64,000 nucleotides of DNA from the NCBI GenBank assembly GCA_030615625.1, contig JAUWYX010000002.1, positions 82,722-146,721 on the forward strand. Reading direction: 5' to 3'. Positions 4,617 to 57,993 of this stretch are shown piece after piece. Position numbers and translations under genes: made by a program. Below the pieces are notes generated by a model that was not told the DNA's origin, did not search any database, and saw only the letters and a program-made list of their open reading frames with translations. The stretch comes from Dehalococcoidia bacterium (GTDB lineage Bacteria > Chloroflexota > Dehalococcoidia > GIF9 > AB-539-J10). Positions within the stretch are counted from its first letter, which is position 1, and the number at the start of each line of letters is the position of its first letter.

Positions 4617-6164
4617 ATGGCTTTAAAGAAATATTGCATTATTGCTCTTGTGGCAGTCATGGTGATGGTGTTGTCCGTGGGGAGCCCTATTGTCGTCGCC
4701 GAGTACTCACCTGAGTCCTCACCTGGGCTCCACACGGGTTGGATGATGGAGCTCGGTGGAGATAACATCACGTATAACCGCACGTATGAATACTATATCC
4801 CGACCGGTTACACCGGTTCAGAGGAGGTCCCCCTGTTGTTTTCGTTTCACGGCTTGGGCAGCAGCGGATTAGGCCAGATCACTCTAACCGAGTTTGATGT
4901 ACTTGCCGAACAAGAAGGGTTTATTGCCGTGTTTCCGAATGCCACAACATTAGATCCGGCGAGTTATCCCTCCTGCGCAGAGGGTTTGCCAGATCTCCCC
5001 GGTGCAGAAATCCAGTGGAATATGGGTGCACCAGGGTCATTGCAATACTGCGCAGGTATTGATGATGTGGGATTTGCTTCGGACATGGTTGACTGGTTTG
5101 AAAATAACTATAACATTGATGAAAGCCGGATCTACGCCACGGGGATGTCCAACGGCGCCATGTTTTCATACTTACTGGCCTTTAACCTGACGGGCACGTT
5201 TGCAGGCATCGCACCGGTTTGTTCACCAATGACGTTAAATCTGGGTGGGAGCACCACTCCGATAACCGTGATAGTGATGATGGGCACAGCCGACCCAATC
5301 GTTCCTTATGAGGGTTATGGTAGCCTAAATGTCACTTATTCTACCAATGAGACTATCGCTTACTGGCGTGGGGTCGACAATACAACCACCGGGCCGGTGG
5401 AAACTGTATGGGGGCCAACTGAGTCGGATTCGACCGTAGTTACCCGCTATGTTTACAGCGGAGGAACGGACGGGACCGAGGTGATATTGTTTAAGGTCGA
5501 TGGGGGCGGGCATACATGGCCCGGCGGGCCCGAGTATGCGCCCGAGTGGGTGATTGGCAAATTTTCCAATCATATCGACGGCAGTGCACAAATATGGAAG
5601 TATTTACCGCCGGAAAAATATTTCCTGACAATATACAGCACTAAAGGTGGCTCGGTAACCACTCCTGGCCGGGAGACATTCGCCAATATCGAGTTTGACG
5701 GAGCTACTATGTTCTTCTATCCCGGCACCGGTGACACCGTGGTCGACCTTGTGGCCACACCATTTAGTAGTAACTGGGAGTTCGTCAACTGGACCGGTGA
5801 CGTGAGTACCATCGCCGATGCCGATGCTGCCACAACCACTATCACTATCACCCCGGACAGAGACTATGAAATCACAGCCAATTTTCAGCTTGTGTCAGAA
5901 GAAGAGCCCGGGGGATGCTTCATAGCCACCGCAGCCTACGGAACTTCCACCGCTGAACAACTCGATGTGTTGCGAGAGTTCCGGGATGACGTGTTGCTGG
6001 AAAGCACCGTGGGCTCTCGACTTGTTGACCTCTACTACCAGGTCAGCCCCCCTATCGCAGACTTCATATCGGAACATAGCTTTGTGAGAACCCTGGTCAG
6101 GGAGCTCCTGATTGACCCCGTTGTTTGGTTAGTTGAAGCCACGGGAGATATATGGCGGAATTAA
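4617..6164 (+). CDS. Secreted alpha/beta-hydrolase (esterase/PHB-depolymerase-like) with one InlB-B-type repeat and a conserved C-terminal module
   Basis: N-terminal signal peptide. The hydrolase region has LLFSFHGLGSSG and a GMSNG nucleophile elbow (GxSxG). A ~75-aa repeat (VNWTGDVSTIADADAATTTITITPDRDYEITANF) follows. The C-terminus is GGCFIATAAYGTSTAEQLDVLREFRD...SPPIADFI, shared with two other proteins in the window. There is a strong RBS (AAAGGGAGGAGGG) upstream. Confidence 0.6.
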   Translation: MALKKYCIIALVAVMVMVLSVGSPIVVAEYSPESSPGLHTGWMMELGGDNITYNRTYEYYIPTGYTGSEEVPLLFSFHGLGSSGLGQITLTEFDVLAEQEGFIAVFPNATTLDPASYPSCAEGLPDLPGAEIQWNMGAPGSLQYCAGIDDVGFASDMVDWFENNYNIDESRIYATGMSNGAMFSYLLAFNLTGTFAGIAPVCSPMTLNLGGSTTPITVIVMMGTADPIVPYEGYGSLNVTYSTNETIAYWRGVDNTTTGPVETVWGPTESDSTVVTRYVYSGGTDGTEVILFKVDGGGHTWPGGPEYAPEWVIGKFSNHIDGSAQIWKYLPPEKYFLTIYSTKGGSVTTPGRETFANIEFDGATMFFYPGTGDTVVDLVATPFSSNWEFVNWTGDVSTIADADAATTTITITPDRDYEITANFQLVSEEEPGGCFIATAAYGTSTAEQLDVLREFRDDVLLESTVGSRLVDLYYQVSPPIADFISEHSFVRTLVRELLIDPVVWLVEATGDIWRN

Positions 6165-6341: not shown

Positions 6342-6433
6342 ATGCAAACCAAGATTTTGGGGAACTAAACTATTACAGGAGAAGGTAGTGGTTGAAGCCT
6401 CGTTGAGACAAATAATGACGAGGTGTTTTTAAA

Positions 6434-6973
6434 GTGAGTGGAAGTACTAGGAAGAAACTGCTAGCTAGCCTCTCTGCCCTTCTGGCAGCTATAATGATAT
6501 TTGCTACCTTTTGTGCTCCCCAGGAAGATAAAGTACAAGAGGCATTAAATCAAACCAAGATGCAAGCGCTATTCGGACAATTGCTTGCGTCCCAAAATAT
6601 TTCAATCGGATTTGGTAATACTGGGGGAGATTTAGCAAGGGTAAGCTACGCGGGTGGAAACTATACCATAACCATTCACAATAGTTACGCAGGCGCAAAC
6701 GTATCAGTAATCAAGGCGTTCCTTGCTCATGAACTCACCCATGTTAAGTGGGCAGTAAATGGCACCGGTGCCCTCGTCACTCATAACCTCACCTTCGCGG
6801 AGGAATACGATGCTTGGAAAACACAAACCGAGGTTTGGAGGGCACATAAAGGCGGCTTAACAGACGACCAGCTCGATCAAAAGGAGCAGCTTATATTCAC
6901 CAACGGGGGATACCGGAATAAGGACGAGGTGAAGACAACGCTGGAGTGGGTGGGCTATACGTTCGGCGACTAA
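6434..6973 (+). CDS. Small secreted/anchored protein with an HExxH motif (putative mini zinc-metallopeptidase-like); GTG start
   Basis: N-terminus MSGSTRKKLLASLSALLAAIMIFAT is a hydrophobic signal/anchor. AFLAHELTHVKW contains HExxH. The 5' ~110 bp, including the upstream leader, are ~95% identical to the next gene. Confidence 0.45.
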   Translation: MSGSTRKKLLASLSALLAAIMIFATFCAPQEDKVQEALNQTKMQALFGQLLASQNISIGFGNTGGDLARVSYAGGNYTITIHNSYAGANVSVIKAFLAHELTHVKWAVNGTGALVTHNLTFAEEYDAWKTQTEVWRAHKGGLTDDQLDQKEQLIFTNGGYRNKDEVKTTLEWVGYTFGD

Positions 6974-7015
6974 AGGCTCGCTGAGGCAAACAAATAATGT
7001 CGAGGTGTTTTTAAA

Positions 7016-7627
7016 GTGAGTGGAAGTACTAAGAAGAAACTGCTAGCTAGCCTCTCTGCCCTTCTGGCTGCTATAATGATATTCGCTACCTCTAGTGCTT
7101 CCCAGGAAGAAATGAACTACACGCAACATGAGGAGCCGGGTTTTGGAGTGACCTTCGAATACCCGCAAGGTTGGCGCCTGGTGAGGTGGGACCTCGAATC
7201 CCCTCCTTATGCGGGTGGTATATGCATATACACTGAGTACACCGGGGAGGACTTGAAGGAGCCGAGGGCCGTTGCCCTGATACTTTCGATAGTTCCTGCG
7301 GTGGAACAGGGAGGGAGTCTGACAACGGTGGATGAGTATGTTGACTATACAATCGTGCAGAGAAGCATCGGTACTACTATGGTTATCAGTGATAATAGCA
7401 CAACGATCGCAGGCCAGTCTGCAAGGGAGGTAAGCATCTCCTACGACCTTCTCCTCCCACCGAACGTTATAGACCCCACACTTGTAACTTGCATAACAAC
7501 CTGGGTGGTCTGCAAGAAAAATGGGTACTTTTATGACCTTCAATTCAGTGCCGGCGCAGCCGACTACGATGACTTCTTCGAAAAAGTTTACGAACATGCT
7601 AAAGAAACGATTAGCTTTGCATCGTAA
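7016..7627 (+). CDS. Small secreted/anchored protein, paralogous N-terminus to the upstream gene; PsbP/DUF1795-like fold suspected
   Basis: N-terminus MSGSTKKKLLASLSALLAAIMIFAT is almost identical to the 6434 gene. The mature part (FEYPQGWRLVRWDL...) is unrelated to its neighbour. Fold assignment is tentative. Confidence 0.45.
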   Translation: MSGSTKKKLLASLSALLAAIMIFATSSASQEEMNYTQHEEPGFGVTFEYPQGWRLVRWDLESPPYAGGICIYTEYTGEDLKEPRAVALILSIVPAVEQGGSLTTVDEYVDYTIVQRSIGTTMVISDNSTTIAGQSAREVSISYDLLLPPNVIDPTLVTCITTWVVCKKNGYFYDLQFSAGAADYDDFFEKVYEHAKETISFAS

Positions 7628-38477: not shown

Positions 38478-39077
38478 ATGAGATTTGTCGCTGAGCCTAT
38501 AGCTAGATTAATTGAGGAATTAAATAAGCTGCCTGGAATCGGGCCAAAAAGTGCTAAAAGGCTGGCTTATCATCTCTTACGCAACCCTGATGAAGAAGCC
38601 AAGGCTTTAGCCGAGGCCATTTTAACACTTAAGGAAAAGATAAAGCTTTGTTCGGTTTGTTTTGACAACACTGATTGTGACCCTTGCCGCGTTTGTCAGG
38701 ATAAAGAGCGTGACCATTCTAAAATTTGTGTCGTGGAGAAACCTTCAGATATCCTTCCTTTGGAGCAGACGGGGAAATATAACGGTGTTTATCATGTGCT
38801 TCATGGAACTATCAGCCCGACAGAAGGTGTAGGGCCTGAAGAGCTAAAGATAAAGGAGCTTCTGGCTCGTCTTAAAGATGGCTCAGTAACCGAAGTGATT
38901 GTCGCAACCAATCCCAATGTAGAGAGCGAAACTATGGCTATGTATCTGCACCGGATTATCACGCCTCTGGGCTTTCGCGTCACTCGCCTGGCTCGTGGCT
39001 TGCCCTTCGGTGCTGAGTTGGAATATGCTGATGACCTAACCTTGGGGCAAGCACTGGAAAACAGGCGAGAATTCTGA
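38478..39077 (+). CDS. recR: Recombination protein RecR
   Basis: HhH motif LPGIGPKSAKRLAYHLL, C4 zinc finger CSVCFDNTDCDPCRVC, Toprim domain. Confidence 0.9.
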   Translation: MRFVAEPIARLIEELNKLPGIGPKSAKRLAYHLLRNPDEEAKALAEAILTLKEKIKLCSVCFDNTDCDPCRVCQDKERDHSKICVVEKPSDILPLEQTGKYNGVYHVLHGTISPTEGVGPEELKIKELLARLKDGSVTEVIVATNPNVESETMAMYLHRIITPLGFRVTRLARGLPFGAELEYADDLTLGQALENRREF

Positions 39078-39116
39078 CAAGGTGTACATAGCTGCACCCC
39101 GAAAATAAAACAGAAA

Positions 39117-39290
39117 TTCTGTAAGAGGTAAGTTTTCCCAAAATCTGAGGGGCCTTCTCGTTTATCAGATTAGCACTATGGGTTGGTATGAGAGGTGGCG
39201 CTCAGCCCCTATCATTCAATTTAGCGATTTTTTACCAATCCGAGAAATTCCAAAAACTCTTGATGGTGCAGACGATGTGATACAATAGTA
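39117..39290. repeat. Element 1 copy a: intergenic repeat with promoter module upstream of the beta-helix gene
   Basis: GTAAGTTTTCCCAAAATCTGAGGGGCC...TATGGGTTGGTATGAGAG...TTTTTACCAATCCGAGAAATTCCAAAAACTCTTGATGG...GTGATACAATAG. It is ~75-85% identical to the copies at 43886, 46607 and 55937. Confidence 0.6.
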
Positions 39291-39581
39291 TAAGATAGGA
39301 TCTTGCAAAACCTAAGCTGTTAATTGTCCTATGTGCTGATCGGGGGTTGAGGAAAAAAGTGACAGAATGGTGGGGAAAAGAGATTACGGGGAGCGATGAG
39401 GCGGCGCCTTTAGGTGGTCACCTGGCCGCGGGTAGCTAACGATGAAACCGACCTTTTGAAGGTCGGTTTTGTGTTTTTAGAGAGGGTGATGCTTGTCGAA
39501 CTGAAAGTTGTGCGATAGAGAGGCCCCTAGGCCTCTGGTCGAGGGGCTATAAGTCAACATAAAAGCAATAAAGGGGGAGAA

Positions 39582-41786
39582 GTGAAAAAGATATTTAGTA
39601 TCCTTTTTGCCCTGGTGCTGGTGGTGAGTTTGGGGCTGGCGTCGACGGCGCCAGTTTTGGCAGATGTTATTGATGTGCCCGGTGACTACCCCACTATCCA
39701 GCAAGCCATTGATGCTGCCTCGGATGGTGACACCATCATGGTGGCGGCGGGTTTGTATGAAGAGAATGTTGAGATTGACAAGTCGTTGACCTTAAAGGGC
39801 GCCCAGGCCGGGGTTGATGCCCGCAACCGCAGTGGCGCTGAGACGATTATTGAACCAGATGAAGGAACAGGGATAAGAATAATTACCGCTGACGACCGAG
39901 ACATCGAGATTGATGGTTTGACGGTGCAGAACGCTGAGCATGGAATCGCGACTCCGGAACCTGAAATGGCCGCTGATATTACCGTCAAAAACGTACGCGT
40001 GTTAAACCCCAGTGAATTCGGGATTAGCCTCACCTTCACCCTGAGAGCAACGATTGAGTATTGCTATGTGGAAGGTGCGACACAAGCCATTAACGCGGGT
40101 GCCCTCGAGCCGTTTCCTCCGACTGTGGCGACCTTCAGGAACAACAAAGTCGTTAACTCGAGGTTTGGCATCACCGGGTACCTCGAAGAAGATTCGCTTA
40201 TCGAAGGCAACGAGGTGAGGGACTTCGTTGCTGGGGGCATAGGCATCAGTGGGTCGTTCCTTAACACCGAAATCAGGAATAACACAGTAACCGGCTATGT
40301 CGATGGCGCGGGCATGAGTTTCGAGGAGCACTACGGCCGCGACCTTTCTGAGAATGTGACTGTGGAAGGTAATACCTTCACAGAGAATAAGCTCGGTATC
40401 TATGTGTTTGATACGCAGACAACACTTACTGGAATCACCGTTAATTTCAACAACATCGCCGACAACTCTCGGTATGGTGTGTGGAACGAGGGAGGCGAGA
40501 CACTGGACGCCACCAAGAACTGGTGGGGCGCTGCCAGCGGACCCGGTAGAGTGGGACCGGGTGACGGCGATGGCGTCTCTACAAAGGTGTTTTACTCGCC
40601 GTGGCTGGGTGCCCAGGTCGGCACCGAGCCAATGACCTGGGGCGTGGACCCGACGAGTTCTATCCAGGACGCCATTGATGCGGCAGCCCATGGCGACACC
40701 ATCATAGCGGCGGAGGGGAAATACGAGGAGGACTTGAATATCGACAAGTCTCTGAACCTCCAGTCGGCAGGCGGGATTGAAGTGACTACTATTACCGGCT
40801 CTGTCAGTATAGAACTGGACGCTGAGATAGTCTTCATTGGTGGAGATGACGCTGGGTTCACCATCGATGCTGATGGTGGTGACTTCGCCTTATGGTTTTC
40901 CATCAACAATGAAAGCGAGGTCTCCATCAGTCACAATGTACTCGCTGGTGCTGTAGATGGCATAACCACCCGGAGCGGCCTGCTGGACAACAGCACCGTC
41001 ACCATCGGGGATAACCAAATCCACGAAAATGACTACGGAATCTACCTGGAATCCGTTGCCGGCGACAGCACCGTGCTCATCAACTCTAACCGCCTCGCTG
41101 GAAACGACGGTTACGGGCTCTACGTCGAAGACAGCGCCGTTATCGTTGACGCCACCTCCAACTGGTGGGGCGATGCCAGCGGACCCAGTGGTGGCGTGAC
41201 CGATCCTGTTACCGGAAAGATTGCGGATGGCACCGGAGATGCTGTTTCGGAACATGTCCACTTTGACCCCTGGCTGCTGACTTATCAATATGCCCTCACA
41301 ATCTCCAGCACCGGTGGGGGTTCAGTAGTCGTCCCTGGCGAGGGGATTTTTACCTATGAGCCTGGAACGGTGGTTGACCTGATAGCGATTACAGACACTT
41401 TCTATAACTTCTACGCGTGGACTGGAGATGTGGGCAACATCGCTAATGTCAACGGCGCAGCAACCAACATCACTATGAACGACAACTATTCTATAACAGC
41501 CAACTTCAATTTTGGGCCGTTTGGGTGGTGCTTCATCGCTACCGCAGCCTACGGTACCGATACAGCAAAGGAGTTAGCCATCCTGAGAGAGTTCAGGGAC
41601 GAGGTCCTGCTGCCTAACAGCTTGGGTGTTATGCTTGTATCTCTCTACTATAAAACCAGCCCTTTCATAGCCAACTTTATCTCCCAACACGAGGTCCTGA
41701 GAACAGCGGTGAGAGTGGGCTTCGTTGACCCAATTGTGAAAATATTAACTTGGACTCAGGGTTTATGGTTGGCGGGAGGCTCATGA
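39582..41786 (+). CDS. Secreted right-handed beta-helix (pectate-lyase/NosD-like) protein with two beta-helix modules, one InlB-B-type repeat and the conserved C-terminal module
   Basis: Signal peptide MKKIFSILFALVLVVSLGLA. There are two modules beginning PGDYPTIQQAIDAASDGDTIMVAAGLYEE and SSIQDAIDAAAHGDTIIAAEGKYEE. Each ends with the NWWG-ASGP...F-PWL motif. The InlB-B-type repeat is ...VVDLIAITDTFYNFYAWTGDV...ITANF. The C-terminus is WCFIATAAYGTDTAKELAILREFRD...SPFIANFI. GTG start with a GGGGGAGAAG RBS. Confidence 0.6.
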   Translation: MKKIFSILFALVLVVSLGLASTAPVLADVIDVPGDYPTIQQAIDAASDGDTIMVAAGLYEENVEIDKSLTLKGAQAGVDARNRSGAETIIEPDEGTGIRIITADDRDIEIDGLTVQNAEHGIATPEPEMAADITVKNVRVLNPSEFGISLTFTLRATIEYCYVEGATQAINAGALEPFPPTVATFRNNKVVNSRFGITGYLEEDSLIEGNEVRDFVAGGIGISGSFLNTEIRNNTVTGYVDGAGMSFEEHYGRDLSENVTVEGNTFTENKLGIYVFDTQTTLTGITVNFNNIADNSRYGVWNEGGETLDATKNWWGAASGPGRVGPGDGDGVSTKVFYSPWLGAQVGTEPMTWGVDPTSSIQDAIDAAAHGDTIIAAEGKYEEDLNIDKSLNLQSAGGIEVTTITGSVSIELDAEIVFIGGDDAGFTIDADGGDFALWFSINNESEVSISHNVLAGAVDGITTRSGLLDNSTVTIGDNQIHENDYGIYLESVAGDSTVLINSNRLAGNDGYGLYVEDSAVIVDATSNWWGDASGPSGGVTDPVTGKIADGTGDAVSEHVHFDPWLLTYQYALTISSTGGGSVVVPGEGIFTYEPGTVVDLIAITDTFYNFYAWTGDVGNIANVNGAATNITMNDNYSITANFNFGPFGWCFIATAAYGTDTAKELAILREFRDEVLLPNSLGVMLVSLYYKTSPFIANFISQHEVLRTAVRVGFVDPIVKILTWTQGLWLAGGS

Positions 41787-41866
41787 ACGTAACAGCAATC
41801 CCGGGCACTAAGTAAACCCTAGGGGGAGCCATTGTAGTTGAGGCAAGCCCGACAAAACTTCGAAAA

Positions 41867-41903
41867 ACCGCTTGACGGTATAGAGGATGTGATATAATAA
41901 TTC
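41867..41903 (+). promoter_or_regulatory. Putative sigma-70-type promoter (CTTGAC -35, 18-nt spacer, extended -10 TGATATAAT) of the second beta-helix gene
   Basis: AAAACTTCGAAAAACCGCTTGACGGTATAGAGGATGTGATATAATAA, with the same architecture as the element 1 promoter module. Confidence 0.5.
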
Positions 41904-42010
41904 AGAAAATTGTAACATGCATTTAATTAACAGGATTTTAACACAAATAGTTTATTATACTGTAAGCCGAAGATTTTGGGGAAAGTGAACTGTTACGAAG
42001 GAGGTGAAGA

Positions 42011-43630
42011 ATGAAAAGGATATTTAGTATCCTGTTTGCCCTGGTGCTGGTGGTGAGCCTGGGGCTAGTGATGGCGACGCCGGTTTCGGCAGGCAACATT
42101 ATTCATGTGCCCGATGACTACGAAACTATCCAAGAAGCCATTGATGCGGCAGGCTCTGGCGACACCATCACAGTGGCGGCGGGGACATGCGCCGCCTTCC
42201 AGGTGCAGGGAAAGACAAATATAAGCATAATCAGCGCTGAGGGGGCAACCGTTACTACCGCAAACTGTTTTACGGTTGACATCGGGCCAATAGTAGGGGA
42301 CGTATGGGTCATGGCTGCGGTGAATGCGTCAGAAAACATCAATATTGAGGGTATTAACTTTGATGGAACCGAGCTCAGCGAAGAAGAAAATGTTTGCGGC
42401 ATCGCCTACCTTGACAGCACAGGGAGACTTGCTGACCTGACGATGGCAAACATTATCGGCACCGAATGGTATTTGGGGGGGGTGGCTATCATAGGTGATG
42501 TCGGCACCTCTGTGGTGAACCTCTCAGGCGTCACCGTCGAGAACTCAGGTGCGGGTGTCGCCATATTGAATGCTGAGACCAATCTTGACGGCTGTACCAT
42601 TACAGAGAATTGGCTAGCAGGTATCCTAATAGGTTGGCCGCTTGACGGGTTCGATCCGTCCACTGCAGAGGTGAAAGGGTCCACAATCTCTAACAACTAC
42701 GGTACAGGCATAGCTGTTTTCGATGATTCTACCCTGGAAGCTCACTTCAACAACATCGTCGGCAACACTGATTTTGGTTTGTGGAACGATGGAGGTGGGA
42801 CGGTGGACGCCACCTACAACTGGTGGGGCGATGCCAGCGGACCATACCACCCCATAGCTAACCCTGGCGGTGAGGGCAATCCCGTCAGCGATGATATGAA
42901 TTTCGAGCCCTGGCTGGAGGCTGAGGCGGTAACAGAGACGGTAACCGATGGCACCGTTGATGCCACGGACGAGGCTGACACCGAGGTTGAGGTAGACGGC
43001 ACAGCTACGGTAACCGTGGCTCCGTATGACGATAATCCCGGCGGGTCCGCTCCAACCGGCTTCAGCTCACAGGATAAATATATCGATGTCTACGTTCCCG
43101 ATACTACGGAAGTCACCGAGCTTGAGATAAGGCTTTACTATACCGATGCTGAAGTAGAGGCGGCAGACGTCGACGAAGAATCGCTACGGCTCTTCTGGTG
43201 GAACGACACTGCCTGGGTGCAGTGCTCAGACGGCGGAGTCAATACCGCCAGCACCAATGGCTACAGCGGTTATATGTGGGCAAAAATAAGAAATAATACC
43301 ACGCCGTCTCTGGCCGACTTGCAGGGGACGGAATTTGGTGGTTATGGCCATCCGTCGGAAACTCCGGGAGGTTGTTTTATCGCTACCACAGCCTACGGTA
43401 CCGATACAGCCAAGGAACTAGACATCCTGAGAGAGTTCAGGGACGAGGTTCTGCTGCCCAACAGCCTAGGCGCCGAGTTTGTATCTCTCTATTATAAAAC
43501 CAGTCCGCCCATAGCCAACTTTATCTCCCAACACGAGGTTCTAAGAACAGCGGTGAGGGTGTGCTTTATTGACCCGATTGTGAAAGTATTAAATTGGAGC
43601 CACGATTTATGGTCGGCGAGAGGCTCATGA
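42011..43630 (+). CDS. Secreted beta-helix protein, paralogue of 39582..41786 with a divergent central region and the same C-terminal module
   Basis: The signal peptide and first ~55 codons are ~85% nucleotide-identical to the upstream paralogue. It has the NWWGDASGP motif, an acidic Thr/Glu/Asp-rich linker, and the C-terminal GGCFIATTAYGTDTAKELDILREFRD...SPPIANFI. The last ~260 bp plus the 3' flank are ~90% identical to 41535-41830. Confidence 0.6.
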   Translation: MKRIFSILFALVLVVSLGLVMATPVSAGNIIHVPDDYETIQEAIDAAGSGDTITVAAGTCAAFQVQGKTNISIISAEGATVTTANCFTVDIGPIVGDVWVMAAVNASENINIEGINFDGTELSEEENVCGIAYLDSTGRLADLTMANIIGTEWYLGGVAIIGDVGTSVVNLSGVTVENSGAGVAILNAETNLDGCTITENWLAGILIGWPLDGFDPSTAEVKGSTISNNYGTGIAVFDDSTLEAHFNNIVGNTDFGLWNDGGGTVDATYNWWGDASGPYHPIANPGGEGNPVSDDMNFEPWLEAEAVTETVTDGTVDATDEADTEVEVDGTATVTVAPYDDNPGGSAPTGFSSQDKYIDVYVPDTTEVTELEIRLYYTDAEVEAADVDEESLRLFWWNDTAWVQCSDGGVNTASTNGYSGYMWAKIRNNTTPSLADLQGTEFGGYGHPSETPGGCFIATTAYGTDTAKELDILREFRDEVLLPNSLGAEFVSLYYKTSPPIANFISQHEVLRTAVRVCFIDPIVKVLNWSHDLWSARGS

Positions 43631-43689
43631 GCGTAACAGCAATCTCGGGCACTAAGTAAACCCTAGGGGGAGTGAAGAGAAACGGTGTA

Positions 43690-43714
43690 AGAGCCGAGGC
43701 TCAGCCTCGGCTCT
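43690..43714. repeat. Palindromic hairpin element (10-bp stem GAGCCGAGGC / GCCTCGGCTC)
   Basis: AGAGCCGAGGCTCAGCCTCGGCTCT. A second, near-identical 13-bp-stem copy lies at 58379-58408. No U-tract follows. Confidence 0.5.
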
Positions 43715-43875
43715 CCCTTTATGGTGCTCTTGGTTTAGTTATCGTGGCACCCTGGATTGCTATAGCGGTGGTCATTATAGTTGGGGCAGGCGCTGAAAAA
43801 CAGGCCAGAATTTTAACAACGTACACCGACTTGTCGGTGCTGTACCTCAAAGACAAAACCTTGCTTACATCGGGG

Positions 43876-44040
43876 TAACAGATTAGGTTTCCCAAAAACC
43901 TGAAGGGGTCTCTGGCTCATCAAATTGCTACTATGGGTCGTATGAGAGCCGGCACCCAGCCTGTGTCACCAGATTCACCGATTTTCTACCAGATGCGGAT
44001 GATTTTATGTAAAATTTGCCAAGCACAGACACTTAAGTGG
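43876..44040. repeat. Element 1 copy b
   Basis: GGTAACAGATTAGGTTTCCCAAAAACCTGAAGGGGTCTCTGGCTCATCAAATTGCTACTATGGGTCGTATGAGAGCCGGCACCCAGCC...; upstream of the DUF169 gene. Confidence 0.6.
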
Positions 44041-55899: not shown

Positions 55900-56135
55900 T
55901 TCAACAAGCCAGGCAAGATACCCGTCGAGGCAGCCAGGCGGTAACAGGTAAGTCTTTCCCAAAAACCTGAAGGGTTTTCTGGCTTATCAGCTTGCTATTA
56001 TGGGTTGGTATGAGAGCTAGTGCCCAGCCTCTATCACTCAATTTATGGACTTTTTTACCGAATGGTGATGAAACTTTGAAAAAATCTTGGAAAATCAGAA
56101 AAACTATTGACAATTCCTTCATTAGTGATATAATA
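55900..56135. repeat. Element 1 copy d, including a 3' remnant of the AbfD-family gene and the promoter module
   Basis: 55906-55945 (CAAGATACCCGTCGAGGCAGCCAGGCGGTAACAGGTAAG) duplicates the last ~12 codons plus stop of 45073..46605 (...SKIPAEAARR*). Then comes GTAAGTCTTTCCCAAAAACCTGAAGGG..., followed by TTGACAATTCCTTCATTAGTGATATAATAGG (TTGACA-N17-TGnTATAAT). Confidence 0.65.
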
Positions 56136-56409
56136 GGCTCCATAAGAATAGTCTTAAAAAAATAGTATTTAAGACTAATATCAAGGTGGGTGGTCAAGTG
56201 TGTGCGTCAGGGGTTTGTTATAGTTCCTACGATGCTCCTAAGAGCACATACAGCTATGTGAACGAGGCTCTTTTTCCCTGCCATGGCAAAATCAATCCTC
56301 CCTTTCGAAACCTAAAATCATTGCCAGGCATAGCCGAGGCAATCCCTTCTCTCTTGAGTCGAAGGATAAGGATTTTGGAAAAACCGAACTGTTACTAAGG
56401 AGTTGAAGT

Positions 56410-57993
56410 ATGAAGATAATACTTAGCTCGAGGAGACGCCACTACGTGAAAAGACTTGGCATCTTTTTGATTACGGTAGCCTTAATTGTGGGAATAGCAG
56501 GCTGTGAGGGTAGTTGTAGTTCTACTCCTGTTCAATACGATCTCACCACCTCCAGTACTGCAGGCGGCGACGTAGTTATCTCCGGTGAGGGAACTTATGC
56601 CGATGGAGCAATAGTCACCATGGAGGCCGTGGCGGATGAGTGTTACGAGTTCGTCAACTGGACCGGCGCAGACGTCGCCGACCCCTACTCTCCCATAACC
56701 ACCATCACTATGGATGAAGCTAAGAGTATAACCGCCAATTTTGCCCTGCTGAGCTACGACCTTACAGCAGACAGCACAGATGGTGGCGAGGTAACCACTC
56801 CTGGCGAGGGGACTTTTACCTATGACTGCGGCACGGTGGTTGACCTGGTGGCGACTCCAGATGCTTACTACGGGTTTGTCGAGTGGACCGGCGATGTGGA
56901 CACCATCGCCGATGTTTATGCTGCCTCAACCGCCATCACCATGAACGGCGACTATTCTATCACCGCTAACTTCATCCTGTTCGCCGGAGGGAACGGAACA
57001 GCCGAGAATCCCTATCAGATTGCGGATTGGTACCACCTTGATAATGTCCGCAATTATCTAAGCAGCTACTTTATCGTCATAAACGACCTCGATTCCAACT
57101 CTATTGGCTATACAGAGCTGGCGAGTGAGACAAGCCACGAAGGAAAAGGCTGGGAGCCAATTGGAAGTATTGCTGTAAATGACGCATTCGTCGGCAGCTT
57201 CGACGGTCAGGGGTACGAGATATGCGACCTGTTTATCGACCGCCCTGACGAATCTGATGTGGGGCTCTTCGGTGTTGTTGAAGAATTAGGGGTCATCGAG
57301 AATGTCGGCGTAGTAGTAAACGGCAATGTGACTGGCCAAGACGATGTTGGCGTTCTGGTGGGAAAGAATGAGGGCACTGTAAGCAACTCCTGTTCCACCG
57401 GCAATGTGACTGGCAACCTCAATGTTGGCGGTCTGGTGGGATGGAATTTTAAGGGCACTGTCACCGACACCTATTCCACCGGCAATGTAACTGGCCTAGA
57501 CAATGTTGGCGGTCTGGTGGGATGGAATACGGGCACTATGAGCAACTCCTATTCCACGGGCGGCGTGACTGGCAATACGAGTGTTGGCGGTCTGACCGGA
57601 AAGAATGGCGGCACTGCGAGCAACTCCTATGCCACCGGCAGCGTGACTGGTGATGATAATGTCGGTGGTCTGGTGGGAAAGAATGACAACACTGGCACTG
57701 TTAGCAACTCCTATTCCACTGGCAGTGTGACTGGCAATACGCATGTTGGCGGTCTGATGGGAAGGAATCAGGGCACTGAGAGCAACTCCTTCTGGGACAC
57801 CGAGACCAGCGGACAAGCTACTTCAGATGGAGGGGACGGCAAGACCACCGCGGAAATGCAGGACATCACCACCTTCTCAGGAGCAGGCTGGGACATAATC
57901 ACAGTCGCCAATCCTGGCACGCGCAACCCTTCCTACATCTGGAATATCGTTAACACTGTGACTTATCCATTCCTGAGCTGGCAGCCTGTTTAA
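56410..57993 (+). CDS. Lipoprotein with two InlB-B-type repeats and tandem GLUG-motif repeats
   Basis: Lipobox LIVGIAGC. Two ~80-aa repeats (FVNWTGADV...ITANF and FVEWTGDV...ITANF). It also has at least six GLUG-type repeats (VGGLVGxNxGTxSNSYSTGxVTG). Confidence 0.65.
   Translation: MKIILSSRRRHYVKRLGIFLITVALIVGIAGCEGSCSSTPVQYDLTTSSTAGGDVVISGEGTYADGAIVTMEAVADECYEFVNWTGADVADPYSPITTITMDEAKSITANFALLSYDLTADSTDGGEVTTPGEGTFTYDCGTVVDLVATPDAYYGFVEWTGDVDTIADVYAASTAITMNGDYSITANFILFAGGNGTAENPYQIADWYHLDNVRNYLSSYFIVINDLDSNSIGYTELASETSHEGKGWEPIGSIAVNDAFVGSFDGQGYEICDLFIDRPDESDVGLFGVVEELGVIENVGVVVNGNVTGQDDVGVLVGKNEGTVSNSCSTGNVTGNLNVGGLVGWNFKGTVTDTYSTGNVTGLDNVGGLVGWNTGTMSNSYSTGGVTGNTSVGGLTGKNGGTASNSYATGSVTGDDNVGGLVGKNDNTGTVSNSYSTGSVTGNTHVGGLMGRNQGTESNSFWDTETSGQATSDGGDGKTTAEMQDITTFSGAGWDIITVANPGTRNPSYIWNIVNTVTYPFLSWQPV

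What the first reader, a model, noticed from the sequence alone, without database searches (positions are those of the whole stretch)
39582..43630. Adjacent paralogous beta-helix surface genes with conserved 5' and 3' ends and divergent cores (cassette-like modularity)
Genes 39582..41786 and 42011..43630 share:
- a ~85%-identical 5' end covering the signal peptide MKK/RIFSILFALVLVVSLGL and the first beta-helix turns, and
- a ~90%-identical 3' end covering the C-terminal module plus the 3' flank.

The central regions differ: two beta-helix modules plus an InlB-B repeat in the first gene, versus one module plus an acidic Thr/Glu/Asp-rich linker domain in the second.

Both carry the recurrent motif NWWG(D/A)ASGP...(F/H)(D/E)PWL at the end of each beta-helix module. 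The first gene is itself an internal tandem duplication of the beta-helix unit.

Conserved termini flanking variable cores are what gene conversion or recombinational shuffling of surface proteins would leave. The same pattern, a conserved 5' region with unrelated mature domains, is seen in the small secreted pair at 6434 and 7016.
Basis: seen in the sequence. Interest (0 to 1): 0.5.

Follow-up and report, generated by a model that had tools for sequence, protein, structure and literature searches.

The report
Modular, strain-variable secreted-protein gene array
Two neighbouring genes of an uncultivated Dehalococcoidia bacterium encode secreted proteins that share near-identical export and tail modules around unrelated middles, and related genomes show that these shared ends are kept alike by recombination and let the middles be swapped between strains, a familiar way for bacteria to vary exported proteins, seen here in a little-studied lineage.

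Summary
Genes 39582..41786 (734 aa) and 42011..43630 (539 aa) share three DNA islands:
- a 5' end, 80% identical over 186 nt
- a beta-helix cap, 84% over 98 nt
- a 3' tail, 87% over 307 nt, including 40 of 42 bases after the stop codon

Their cores are saturated at synonymous sites.

Both proteins are built as Sec signal peptide, beta-helix passenger, then CFI-box-CTERM tail (NCBIfam NF041770).

About 90 related Dehalococcoidia loci carry the same array next to recR. Gene 1 is always present. One to four further genes follow, with different passengers (beta-helix, RCC1-like, GLUG-type and others) on the same signal peptide and tail.

In the tail, paralogues from one genome are more alike at synonymous sites than paralogues from different genomes (p = 0.0004). 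That is concerted evolution.

A close relative, L044 (recR dS 0.04), has RCC1-type passengers exactly where the window has gene 2's beta-helix, between conserved ends.

No silent cassettes or invertible promoters were found, so this is not a programmed antigenic-variation system.

Verdict: a new member of a known kind, namely a surface-protein family evolving by gene conversion and module exchange. Interest is moderate.

By-products:
- a ZU5/GAIN-like fold in the tail
- an unclassified conserved leader RNA ahead of gene 1

The parts
39121..39262 (+). Repeated upstream element ahead of the gene 1 promoter. Other copies lie at 43884-43991 and 55941-56089.
   Evidence: Identity is 73-79%. No RNA-structure signal was found.
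39261..39288 (+). Promoter-like site of gene 1: TTGATG, 17-nt spacer preceded by TG, TACAAT.
   Evidence: Read from the sequence. Conserved in 14 orthologous loci. 81% identical to the gene 2 promoter region (D11).
39289..39480 (+). Conserved leader of gene 1, ending in an intrinsic terminator at 39442-39480.
   Evidence: Terminator scan. Conserved in 47 distinct sequences; the alifold structure is 95% paired and is reached by 0 of 500 shuffles. The Rfam c-di-GMP-II hit is sub-threshold and not supported.
39582..41786 (+). Gene 1, 734 aa: signal peptide, two beta-helix modules, InlB B-repeat, CFI-box-CTERM tail.
   Evidence: More than 100 full-length orthologues at 73-87% identity.
39582..39662 (+). 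Signal peptide of gene 1 (27 aa, ...APVLA|DV).
   Evidence: Read from the sequence. Part of the 5' island 39571-39751. The same peptide occurs on all array genes in relatives.
40446..40543 (+). Cap of beta-helix module 1 (FNNI..NWWGAASGP); a DNA island shared with gene 2.
   Evidence: 83.7% identical to 42746-42843; dS 0.19.
41523..41786 (+). CFI-box-CTERM tail of gene 1 (aa 648-734).
   Evidence: NF041770, 89.9 bits against a cutoff of 40. 3' island.
41787..41828 (+). 3' flank of gene 1. 40 of 42 bases match the gene 2 flank, and it carries a motif (AAACCCTAGGGGGAG) found only in these two genes.
   Evidence: Run test p 0.037.
41872..41901 (+). Promoter-like site of gene 2.
   Evidence: 10 of 12 matches. 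Conserved upstream of the second genes in relatives.
41902..42010 (+). 5'UTR of gene 2, conserved among the downstream array genes of relatives. Its last 38 nt recur at 56371-56408.
42011..43630 (+). Gene 2, 539 aa: signal peptide, one beta-helix module, mid-domain, CFI-box-CTERM tail.
   Evidence: Full-length orthologues at 53-73% identity.
42093..42928 (+). Passenger (beta-helix) segment of gene 2. 42185-42928 has no counterpart in the close relative L044; 42093-42184 aligns there only to gene 1's N-terminal cap.
42923..43366 (+). Mid-domain of gene 2 (aa 305-452): a beta-sandwich shared with RCC1-type and other array genes.
43367..43630 (+). CFI-box-CTERM tail of gene 2 (aa 453-539).
   Evidence: NF041770, 92.9 bits. 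In the model the CFI motif sits in a disordered linker followed by three helices.
43631..43672 (+). 3' flank of gene 2, homologous to 41787-41828.
43690..43714 (+). G+C-rich hairpin after the last array gene, conserved in relatives.
   Evidence: Read from the sequence. Conserved in the alignment.

Best explanation
**What it is.** The two genes are the window's copy of a tandem array of secreted, probably cell-surface, proteins. The array sits immediately downstream of dnaX-ybaB-recR in a clade of uncultivated Dehalococcoidia.

**How each gene is built.** Every array gene has three kinds of module:
1. a nearly invariant Sec signal peptide (VKKIFSILFALVLVVSLGLVTAAPVLA);
2. a passenger, which is two beta-helices plus a B-repeat in gene 1 and one beta-helix in gene 2 (RCC1-like propellers, GLUG repeats and other, unclassified domains occur in relatives);
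3. a tail, made of an optional ~150-aa beta-sandwich followed by the CFI-box-CTERM domain.

**How it works.** The end modules serve export and, by inference, sorting or anchoring. Because neighbouring genes carry them as near-identical DNA, they also act as homology arms.
- Gene conversion between paralogues keeps the ends alike (concerted evolution).
- Homologous exchange, within the array and with alleles of other strains, replaces or adds passenger segments.
- The result is that closely related strains display different passenger sets after the constant gene 1.

**Shown:** the mosaic pattern, the module architecture, the conserved array position, concerted evolution of the tail, passenger replacement between close relatives, and divergence of the array that is decoupled from the flanks.

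**Inferred:** surface location, the sorting role of the CFI-box tail, the recombination mechanism (RecA-type homologous recombination) and any selective advantage.
For: **Mosaic pattern.** Three DNA islands and otherwise unalignable DNA. Island dS is 0.19-0.47; core pS is 0.64-0.68.

**Not simply protein-level constraint.**
- The third CFI-box gene of the same window (4617..6164) has a tail that is saturated at synonymous sites against both genes (pS 0.77-0.83).
- The non-coding 3' flank matches at 40 of 42 bases. It carries a motif shared only by the two window genes and absent from all orthologues aligned.

**Modules.** NF041770 at 89.9 and 92.9 bits. PF13229 and PF18998.

**Conserved array.** recR-g1-g2(-more) in L001-L014 and L040-L117.

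**Passenger diversity on the same signal peptide and tail.**. The tail is also attached to SBP_bac_5, RCC1, He_PIG, NlpC/P60, lectin and PQQ domains in database proteins.

**Concerted evolution of the tail (25 dereplicated loci).**
- Whole-DNA quartets: 178 concerted, 115 orthologous, 7 crossed.
- Synonymous sites: within-genome pS 0.388 against between-genome paralogue pS 0.427, permutation p 0.0004; orthologues 0.39-0.40.
- Significant identity runs in L044 (p 0.0002), L065 (0.004), L055 (0.009) and L073 (0.017); W 0.037.

**Passenger swap between close relatives.**
- W and L044 are 96-99% identical through recR.
- Identity drops to 84-91% from about 39115-39260 onward.
- recR dS is 0.04 but g1 core dS is 0.24.
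- W 42185-42928 is absent from L044, which has RCC1-type genes between the conserved 5' module (90%) and tail (87%).
- L063 and L082 give further examples.

**Module phylogenies disagree.** The mid-domain of W gene 2 is closest to RCC1-type genes (82%) and less close to its full-length beta-helix orthologues (69-75%).
Against: - For the window pair itself, tail dS is about 0.4-0.5. Any conversion of the coding tail is therefore old. The only recent-looking tract is about 55 nt at the 3' flank, with p 0.037 in a single uncorrected test.
- The signal-peptide DNA gives a star-like result: quartets 119/114/67 and all distances about 0.19. That fits strong constraint as well as it fits conversion.
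- Gene 1 is a stable full-length orthologue in more than 100 assemblies, so not every member is shuffled.
- Nearly all comparison loci are metagenome contigs or MAGs. Assemblers can switch strains inside repeated modules, which would inflate the mosaic signals.
- Export, surface location and the function of the CFI-box tail have not been tested anywhere. No paper mentions the domain.
Confidence: 0.7

Rival explanations
1. Ancient duplication plus purifying selection only. The ends look alike because a signal peptide and a sorting domain are constrained, while the passengers drifted apart. No recombination is involved.
For: - The ends are recognised functional modules.
- The same signal-peptide and tail protein sequences are conserved across all relatives.
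- The signal-peptide quartets are star-like.
- The window pair's tail dS of about 0.5 is not small.
Against: - Synonymous sites and a non-coding flank are conserved between the two genes, whereas the third CFI-box gene of the same window is saturated at synonymous sites.
- Within-genome paralogues are closer at synonymous sites than between-genome paralogues, p 0.0004.
- Paralogue distance in the tail is about equal to orthologue distance, although the duplication predates all 25 genomes.
- The passenger is replaced between genomes whose recR dS is 0.04.
Confidence: 0.15
2. A programmed antigenic- or phase-variation system. One expression locus would be diversified by unidirectional conversion from silent partial cassettes, or by promoter inversion, as in pilE/pilS or vlsE.
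For: Conserved ends around variable cores resemble the layout of such systems. The locus varies between strains.
Against: - Each gene is a complete ORF with its own promoter-like site, RBS and signal peptide.
- No further partial copies of the 5' or 3' modules exist in 64 kb.
- No convincing inverted repeats flank the promoters.
- No homopolymer or short-repeat tracts were noticed on reading the 5' ends; no systematic scan was run.
- The cores are stable orthologues across many assemblies.
Confidence: 0.04
3. Assembly artefact. The window contig or the comparison contigs are strain chimeras joined inside the repeated modules, so the 'mosaic' and 'swapped passenger' patterns are not real haplotypes.
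For: - The loci come from metagenomes.
- A Logan contig with an identical gene 1 (L005) ends about 266 nt after gene 1. If it is collinear with the window, that point lies inside the gene 2 signal-peptide repeat.
- The exact gene 2 protein is not on record elsewhere.
Against: - The same architecture recurs in dozens of independent assemblies from different samples.
- One of these is a 1.62-Mb single-contig genome (CP070793, L001), which shows the strongest within-genome tail similarity: 90% against 73-84%.
- The two-gene similarity inside the window does not depend on any assembly join.
Confidence: 0.06

Closest known systems
Helicobacter pylori bab (babA/babB/babC) and the wider Hop outer-membrane protein family
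   Same: - Paralogous exported proteins with homologous 5' and 3' regions and divergent middles.
- Intragenomic homologous recombination (gene conversion) makes chimeras.
- Locus occupancy differs between strains (PMC4552749).
   Different: - The bab loci are dispersed in the genome. Here the genes lie in tandem next to recR.
- bab uses CT-repeat phase variation. None is seen here.
- The conserved bab C-terminus is a beta-barrel anchor, not a CFI-box tail.
- Exchange here moves whole unrelated passenger domains.
CFI-box-CTERM domain-containing proteins (NCBIfam NF041770)
   Same: Both genes, and 4617..6164, match the model end to end well above the cutoff. The domain is C-terminal on proteins that carry signal peptides, as the name implies.
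   Different: - The family is only a sequence model. No function, partner enzyme or paper was found.
- The array genes share one particular, much more similar version of the tail, and often an extra beta-sandwich in front of it.
C-terminal sorting-tag families on diverse exoproteins (PGF-CTERM/archaeosortase, PEP-CTERM/exosortase, LPXTG/sortase). This comparison is from general knowledge.
   Same: One short conserved C-terminal module is attached to many unrelated passenger domains within a lineage.
   Different: - The CFI-box tail is about 87 aa.
- It is predicted to be a disordered CFI motif followed by three amphipathic helices, with no transmembrane helix plus basic tail.
- No processing enzyme is known or encoded nearby.
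Silent-cassette antigenic variation (Neisseria pilE/pilS, Borrelia vlsE). This comparison is from general knowledge.
   Same: Conserved segments flank variable segments, and recombination is the source of variation.
   Different: There are no silent cassettes, no single expression site and no evidence of high-frequency switching.
ZU5 / FIIND / GAIN-B beta-sandwich domains
   Different: - Sequence identity is 6-10%.
- No HL/T- or SF/S-type cleavage motif is evident.
- Foldseek E-values are weak.
- Generic beta-sandwich resemblance cannot be excluded.

Membership tests
CFI-box-CTERM domain proteins (NF041770) | Full-length HMM match above the curated cutoff of 40 bits, at the C-terminus | tested here: met
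   Gene 1: 89.9 bits, aa 650-715, profile positions 1-66 of 69. Gene 2: 92.9 bits, aa 455-520.
CFI-box-CTERM domain proteins (NF041770) | N-terminal signal peptide, so the tag sits on an exported protein | tested here: met
   Both begin M/VK(K/R)IFSILFALVLVVSLGL...A|, read from the sequence. No dedicated predictor was available.
CFI-box-CTERM domain proteins (NF041770) | Role of the tail in sorting or anchoring | not testable with these tools
   No literature was found. The model shows a disordered motif followed by three helices.
Right-handed parallel beta-helix proteins (PF13229 / NosD-like) | Pfam match above the gathering score | tested here: met
   Gene 1: 76.8 bits. Gene 2: 44.9 bits. 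Cutoff 25.9.
NosD copper-maturation family (TIGR04247) | Score above the curated cutoff of 300 bits | tested here: not met
   81.6 and 15.1 bits. There is also no nos gene context.
Paralogues under concerted evolution (gene conversion) | Paralogues within a genome are more alike than paralogues between genomes, at synonymous sites | tested here: met
   pS 0.388 against 0.427, permutation p 0.0004, 25 loci. Whole-DNA quartets: 178 concerted against 115 orthologous.
Paralogues under concerted evolution (gene conversion) | Discrete tracts of excess identity with breakpoints | tested here: inconclusive
   Window pair: a run of 26 polymorphic sites at the 3' flank, p 0.037 uncorrected. The result is clearer in L044 (0.0002), L065 (0.004) and L055 (0.009).
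Silent-cassette antigenic variation systems | Promoterless partial cassettes homologous to the expressed gene | tested here: not met
   No extra copies of the 5' or 3' modules in the 64-kb window. The rest of the genome was not searched.
Phase-variable loci | An invertible promoter flanked by inverted repeats, or slippage-prone repeats in the 5' end | tested here: not met
   Only short, weak inverted repeats. No such repeats were noticed on reading the 5' ends; no tandem-repeat scan was run.
c-di-GMP-II riboswitch (RF01786), considered for the gene 1 leader | Bit score at or above the gathering score of 53.5 | tested here: not met
   32.2 bits in the window. Among 14 related loci only two hits appeared, at 25.5 and 23.8 bits.
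c-di-GMP-II riboswitch (RF01786), considered for the gene 1 leader | Covariation supporting the family's helices and pseudoknot | tested here: not met
   72.8% of cells paired, no better than shuffles (244 of 500). A different structure fits better: 95.3% paired, reached by 0 of 500 shuffles.
ZU5 / GAIN autoproteolytic domains, considered for the mid-domain | Fold similarity | tested here: met
   [not shown]
ZU5 / GAIN autoproteolytic domains, considered for the mid-domain | Cleavage motif and self-cleavage | not tested
   Only a nearly invariant Cys-Ser (C103-S104 of the query) was noted.

The most novel reading that the evidence does not exclude
The array could be a dedicated diversification hotspot for the cell envelope of Dehalococcoidia (a class reported, from general knowledge, to lack peptidoglycan). 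This reading has three parts:
- An uncharacterised sorting pathway recognises both the near-invariant signal peptide and the CFI-box tail.
- The ZU5/GAIN-like beta-sandwich next to the tail is a self-cleaving or tethering module. That would be a bacterial extracellular counterpart of the GAIN domain of adhesion receptors.
- Expression of the constant first gene is gated by a new ligand-sensing leader RNA.

The evidence does not exclude any of the three parts. None of them is shown.
Probability: 0.12. Interest if true: 0.7.

Novelty: new member of a known kind. Interest (0 to 1): 0.4.

Why it matters
Dehalococcoidia are abundant in anoxic sediments and aquifers, yet almost nothing is known about how they build and vary their cell surface.

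This locus gives three things:
- a concrete, conserved genomic address (downstream of recR) where strains differ in exported passenger domains;
- a natural set of proteins with which to work out what the unstudied CFI-box-CTERM tail does;
- a marker for strain-level heterogeneity, and for likely assembly breaks, in metagenomes.

The principle itself is well known from pathogens: conserved ends, gene conversion and swapped middles. The value lies in the lineage and the modules, not in a new mechanism.

Tried and rejected
**c-di-GMP-II riboswitch for the gene 1 leader.**
- The hit is full-length but sub-threshold.
- Covariation does not support the family's helices.
- The match is barely seen in homologous leaders.
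- Rejected as a member. The leader remains unclassified.

**Silent cassettes and extra module copies in the window.** None found.

**Invertible promoter.** No convincing inverted repeats.

**Flanking direct repeats (recR tail plus intergenic element) as a footprint of insertion of the array.**
- The repeats bracket the array in several species.
- A third copy of the element sits upstream of an unrelated surface-protein gene at 56410.
- A shared upstream regulatory module is therefore at least as likely. The question is left open.

**RNA structure in that repeated element.** No signal; z-scores -0.8, -1.2 and +0.4.

**Pfam and NCBIfam assignment of the gene 2 mid-domain and of the tail in Pfam.** No family.

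**Literature on the CFI-box.** Nothing found.

**Exact-protein look-up of gene 2.** Not on record.

**Rfam at gathering thresholds over the whole window.** Only one tRNA-Pro.

Full report
**What is at the coordinates**

Two complete ORFs lie on the + strand: 39582..41786 (734 aa, gene 1) and 42011..43630 (539 aa, gene 2). They sit directly downstream of dnaX (36440), ybaB (38055) and recR (38478..39077). Downstream lie a DUF169 gene (44120) and an HpaB-family gene (45007). The wider neighbourhood is ordinary core chromosome, including gyrA, aspartokinase and phosphoglycerate mutase.

Database names on orthologues, and the titles of related contigs, place the window in uncultivated Dehalococcoidia / Chloroflexota.

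**The observation**

blastn of the two gene units against each other finds three islands of similarity and nothing else:
- the 5' end: 39571-39751 vs 41998-42183, 79.6% over 186 nt, starting 11 nt before the start codons;
- the cap of the beta-helix: 40446-40543 vs 42746-42843, 83.7%;
- the 3' end: 41523-41828 vs 43366-43672, 86.6% over 307 nt.

The 3' island continues 42 nt past both stop codons, where 40 of 42 bases match.

At protein level the termini are 72% and 82% identical, and the alignable cores 31-35%.

Synonymous divergence:

| Region | Value |
|---|---|
| N-terminal end | dS 0.37 |
| Tail | dS 0.47 |
| Cap | dS 0.19 |
| Cores | pS 0.64-0.68 (saturated), dN 0.73-0.78 |

So divergence is strongly non-uniform. 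Otherwise the description is accurate, including:
- the internal duplication of gene 1;
- the InlB B-repeat;
- the small secreted pair at 6434/7016, which is 94% identical over 121 nt at the 5' end.

**What the modules are**

- Both proteins begin with a typical Sec signal peptide ending ..A-P-V-x-A.
- Both contain right-handed beta-helix repeats (PF13229).
- Both end in the CFI-box-CTERM domain (NF041770; 89.9 and 92.9 bits against a cutoff of 40).

A third CFI-box protein is encoded at 4617..6164. It is a PHA-depolymerase-like esterase with a B-repeat. Its tail is saturated at synonymous sites against both genes (pS 0.77-0.83). The similarity of the two adjacent tails is therefore not simply what the domain requires.

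Gene 2's 'acidic linker' (aa 305-452) matches no Pfam or NCBIfam family. An AlphaFold2 model built on 52 homologues gives the following:
- a confident beta-sandwich (pLDDT above 90);
- then a disordered stretch that contains the CFI motif itself;
- then three helices (pLDDT about 80).

**Related loci**

Gene 1 has more than 100 full-length orthologues at 73-87% identity. Fetching their contexts gave about 90 loci.

- The order dnaX-ybaB-recR-gene 1 is constant.
- Gene 1 is present in all 32 dereplicated loci that have a complete gene 1 and at least one complete downstream CFI gene.
- One to four further genes follow, 474 to 1213 aa long.

These downstream genes carry the same signal peptide and usually the same mid-domain plus CFI tail. 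Their passengers differ: one beta-helix, RCC1-like propellers, GLUG repeats, other unclassified domains, even two mid-domains in one protein.

A database search with the tail alone finds it fused to further unrelated domains: SBP_bac_5, He_PIG, NlpC/P60, C-type lectin and PQQ propellers. The modular architecture is therefore a property of a whole family, and this locus is a tandem concentration of it.

**Concerted evolution of the ends**

The gene 1 / gene 2 split predates all these genomes. Without homogenisation, tail distances between the two types should exceed orthologue distances. They do not.

Over 234 nt of the CFI domain in 25 dereplicated loci:

| Comparison | Mean p-distance |
|---|---|
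| Paralogues within a genome | 0.154 |
| Paralogues between genomes | 0.178 |
| Orthologues | 0.162-0.166 |

Four-taxon comparisons favour the 'by genome' topology 178 times, the 'by orthologue' topology 115 times and the crossed one 7 times.

Restricting the analysis to synonymous sites gives 0.388, 0.427 and 0.39-0.40. The permutation p is 0.0004 for the within-genome excess of similarity.

A GENECONV-like run test finds significant tracts in L044 (0.0002), L065 (0.004), L055 (0.009) and L073 (0.017).

In the window pair the longest run is the 3' flank (26 polymorphic sites, p 0.037). There the two genes share a motif, AAACCCTAGGGGGAG, found in no aligned orthologue.

The 81-nt signal-peptide DNA shows no orthologue structure at all: all distances are about 0.19 and the quartets are 119/114/67. 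That fits either repeated homogenisation or very strong constraint.

**Passenger exchange between close relatives**

L044 is nearly the same organism as the window's source.
- The upstream DNA is 98.4% identical.
- recR and ybaB have dS 0.04.
- Identity is 96-99% through recR, then falls abruptly to 84-91% from about 39115-39260 and stays there through gene 1.
- The gene 1 core has dS 0.24 and dN 0.084.

After the conserved gene 1 to gene 2 spacer and signal-peptide DNA (about 90%), L044 has two RCC1-type genes. W 42185-42928, the beta-helix passenger, has no counterpart there. Similarity resumes at 42929 in the mid-domain and tail (87%). L063 and L082, with recR dS 0.11-0.13, give further different second genes.

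Conversely, in distant genomes gene 1 is less diverged than the flanks. In L069, recR dS is 1.44 against 0.73 for gene 1. The array's history is therefore decoupled from that of its neighbours.

Two further observations point the same way:
- The mid-domain of W gene 2 is closest to RCC1-type genes (82%), not to its own full-length orthologues (69-75%).
- Its nearest neighbour changes every few hundred bases along the gene.

Together these results indicate homologous exchange at the conserved modules.

**What it is not**

- No further copies of the end modules exist in the window.
- No convincing inverted repeats lie around the promoters.
- Every gene has its own promoter-like site and RBS.

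A silent-cassette or invertible-promoter system is therefore not supported.

An assembly artefact is unlikely to explain the whole picture. The architecture recurs in many independent assemblies, including a 1.62-Mb single-contig genome with the strongest within-genome tail similarity. Still, strain switching inside repeats could inflate the mosaic statistics. One short-read contig with an identical gene 1 ends just where gene 2's signal-peptide repeat would begin.

**Comparison with known systems**

The closest analogue in behaviour is the H. pylori bab/Hop family. It has homologous 5' and 3' regions, divergent middles, gene conversion that makes chimeras, and strain-specific locus occupancy (PMC4552749). 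The present case differs in four ways:
- the genes are tandem;
- whole unrelated passenger domains are exchanged;
- no phase-variation repeats are present;
- the tail is the uncharacterised CFI-box module, for which no literature was found.

I therefore class it as a new member of a known kind.

**By-products**

Upstream of gene 1 lies a conserved promoter and a leader of about 190 nt that ends in an invariant terminator (39442-39480).
- It is conserved in 47 distinct sequences and is sometimes duplicated ahead of other array genes.
- Its weak full-length match to the c-di-GMP-II riboswitch (32.2 bits) is not backed by covariation or by the homologues.
- An alternative fold fits well.

A roughly 120-140 nt upstream element occurs three times in the window: ahead of gene 1, ahead of DUF169 and ahead of a B-repeat/GLUG lipoprotein gene at 56410. 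This hints at shared regulation.

Noticed in passing
window 39289-39480 (+): A conserved leader of about 190 nt lies between the gene 1 promoter and the start codon. It ends in an intrinsic terminator whose stem (CCGACC...GGTCGG) is invariant in 47 homologues. It has a weak full-length match to the c-di-GMP-II riboswitch (32.2 bits, below threshold) that covariation does not support. A different fold (helix GUGAC/GUCAC and others) is 95% paired. It is a candidate new cis-regulatory RNA.
   Followed up: partly
window 39121-39262, 43884-43991, 55941-56089 (+): Three copies (73-79% identical) of an intergenic element, each followed by a promoter-like site. They lie ahead of gene 1, ahead of the DUF169 gene and ahead of the gene at 56410. 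No RNA-structure signal was found. It may be a shared regulatory region.
   Followed up: partly
window 39042-39083 vs 43781-43822; ORF 43672..43878: The last 36 nt of recR plus 6 nt after its stop codon are repeated (83%) downstream of gene 2, inside a 68-aa ORF that has one hydrophobic helix. Together with the element above, this forms a degenerate direct repeat that brackets the array. The same bracket is seen in L002, L068, L076, L086 and L088. It may be a relic of how the array arose.
   Followed up: partly
window 4617..6164 (+): A third CFI-box-CTERM protein: a PHA-depolymerase-like esterase, an InlB B-repeat and the CFI tail. It has a different signal peptide, and its tail is saturated at synonymous sites against genes 1 and 2.
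   Followed up: partly
window 6408-6528 vs 6990-7110 (+): The small secreted pair (6434..6973 and 7016..7627) shares a 94%-identical 121-nt 5' end (RBS region plus signal peptide) ahead of unrelated mature parts. Neither protein has a significant Pfam match.
   Followed up: partly
window 56410..57993 (+): A predicted lipoprotein (lipobox ..IAGC) with InlB B-repeats and GLUG motifs. Its 5'UTR end (56371-56408) is 84% identical to that of gene 2 (41972-42009). A GLUG-type passenger also occurs in the array of L082.
   Followed up: partly
[not shown]
   Followed up: partly
window about 39115-39260, compared with L044: There is a sharp boundary in identity to a near-identical relative: 96-99% up to the end of recR, then 84-91% from the intergenic element onward through gene 1. 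This suggests a recombination breakpoint at the left edge of the array.
   Followed up: yes
L005 (Logan contig, 8499 nt), end of contig: A short-read contig with an identical gene 1 stops 266 nt after it. If it is collinear with the window, that point is window position about 42052, inside gene 2's signal-peptide repeat. This may be an assembly break caused by the repeat or by strain heterogeneity.
   Followed up: no
L001 11255-12679 (CP070793): The third array gene of this genome has the array signal peptide and a beta-helix passenger, but it ends in a hydrophobic helix plus a KRKGK tail instead of the CFI box. The anchor module itself can therefore be exchanged.
   Followed up: no
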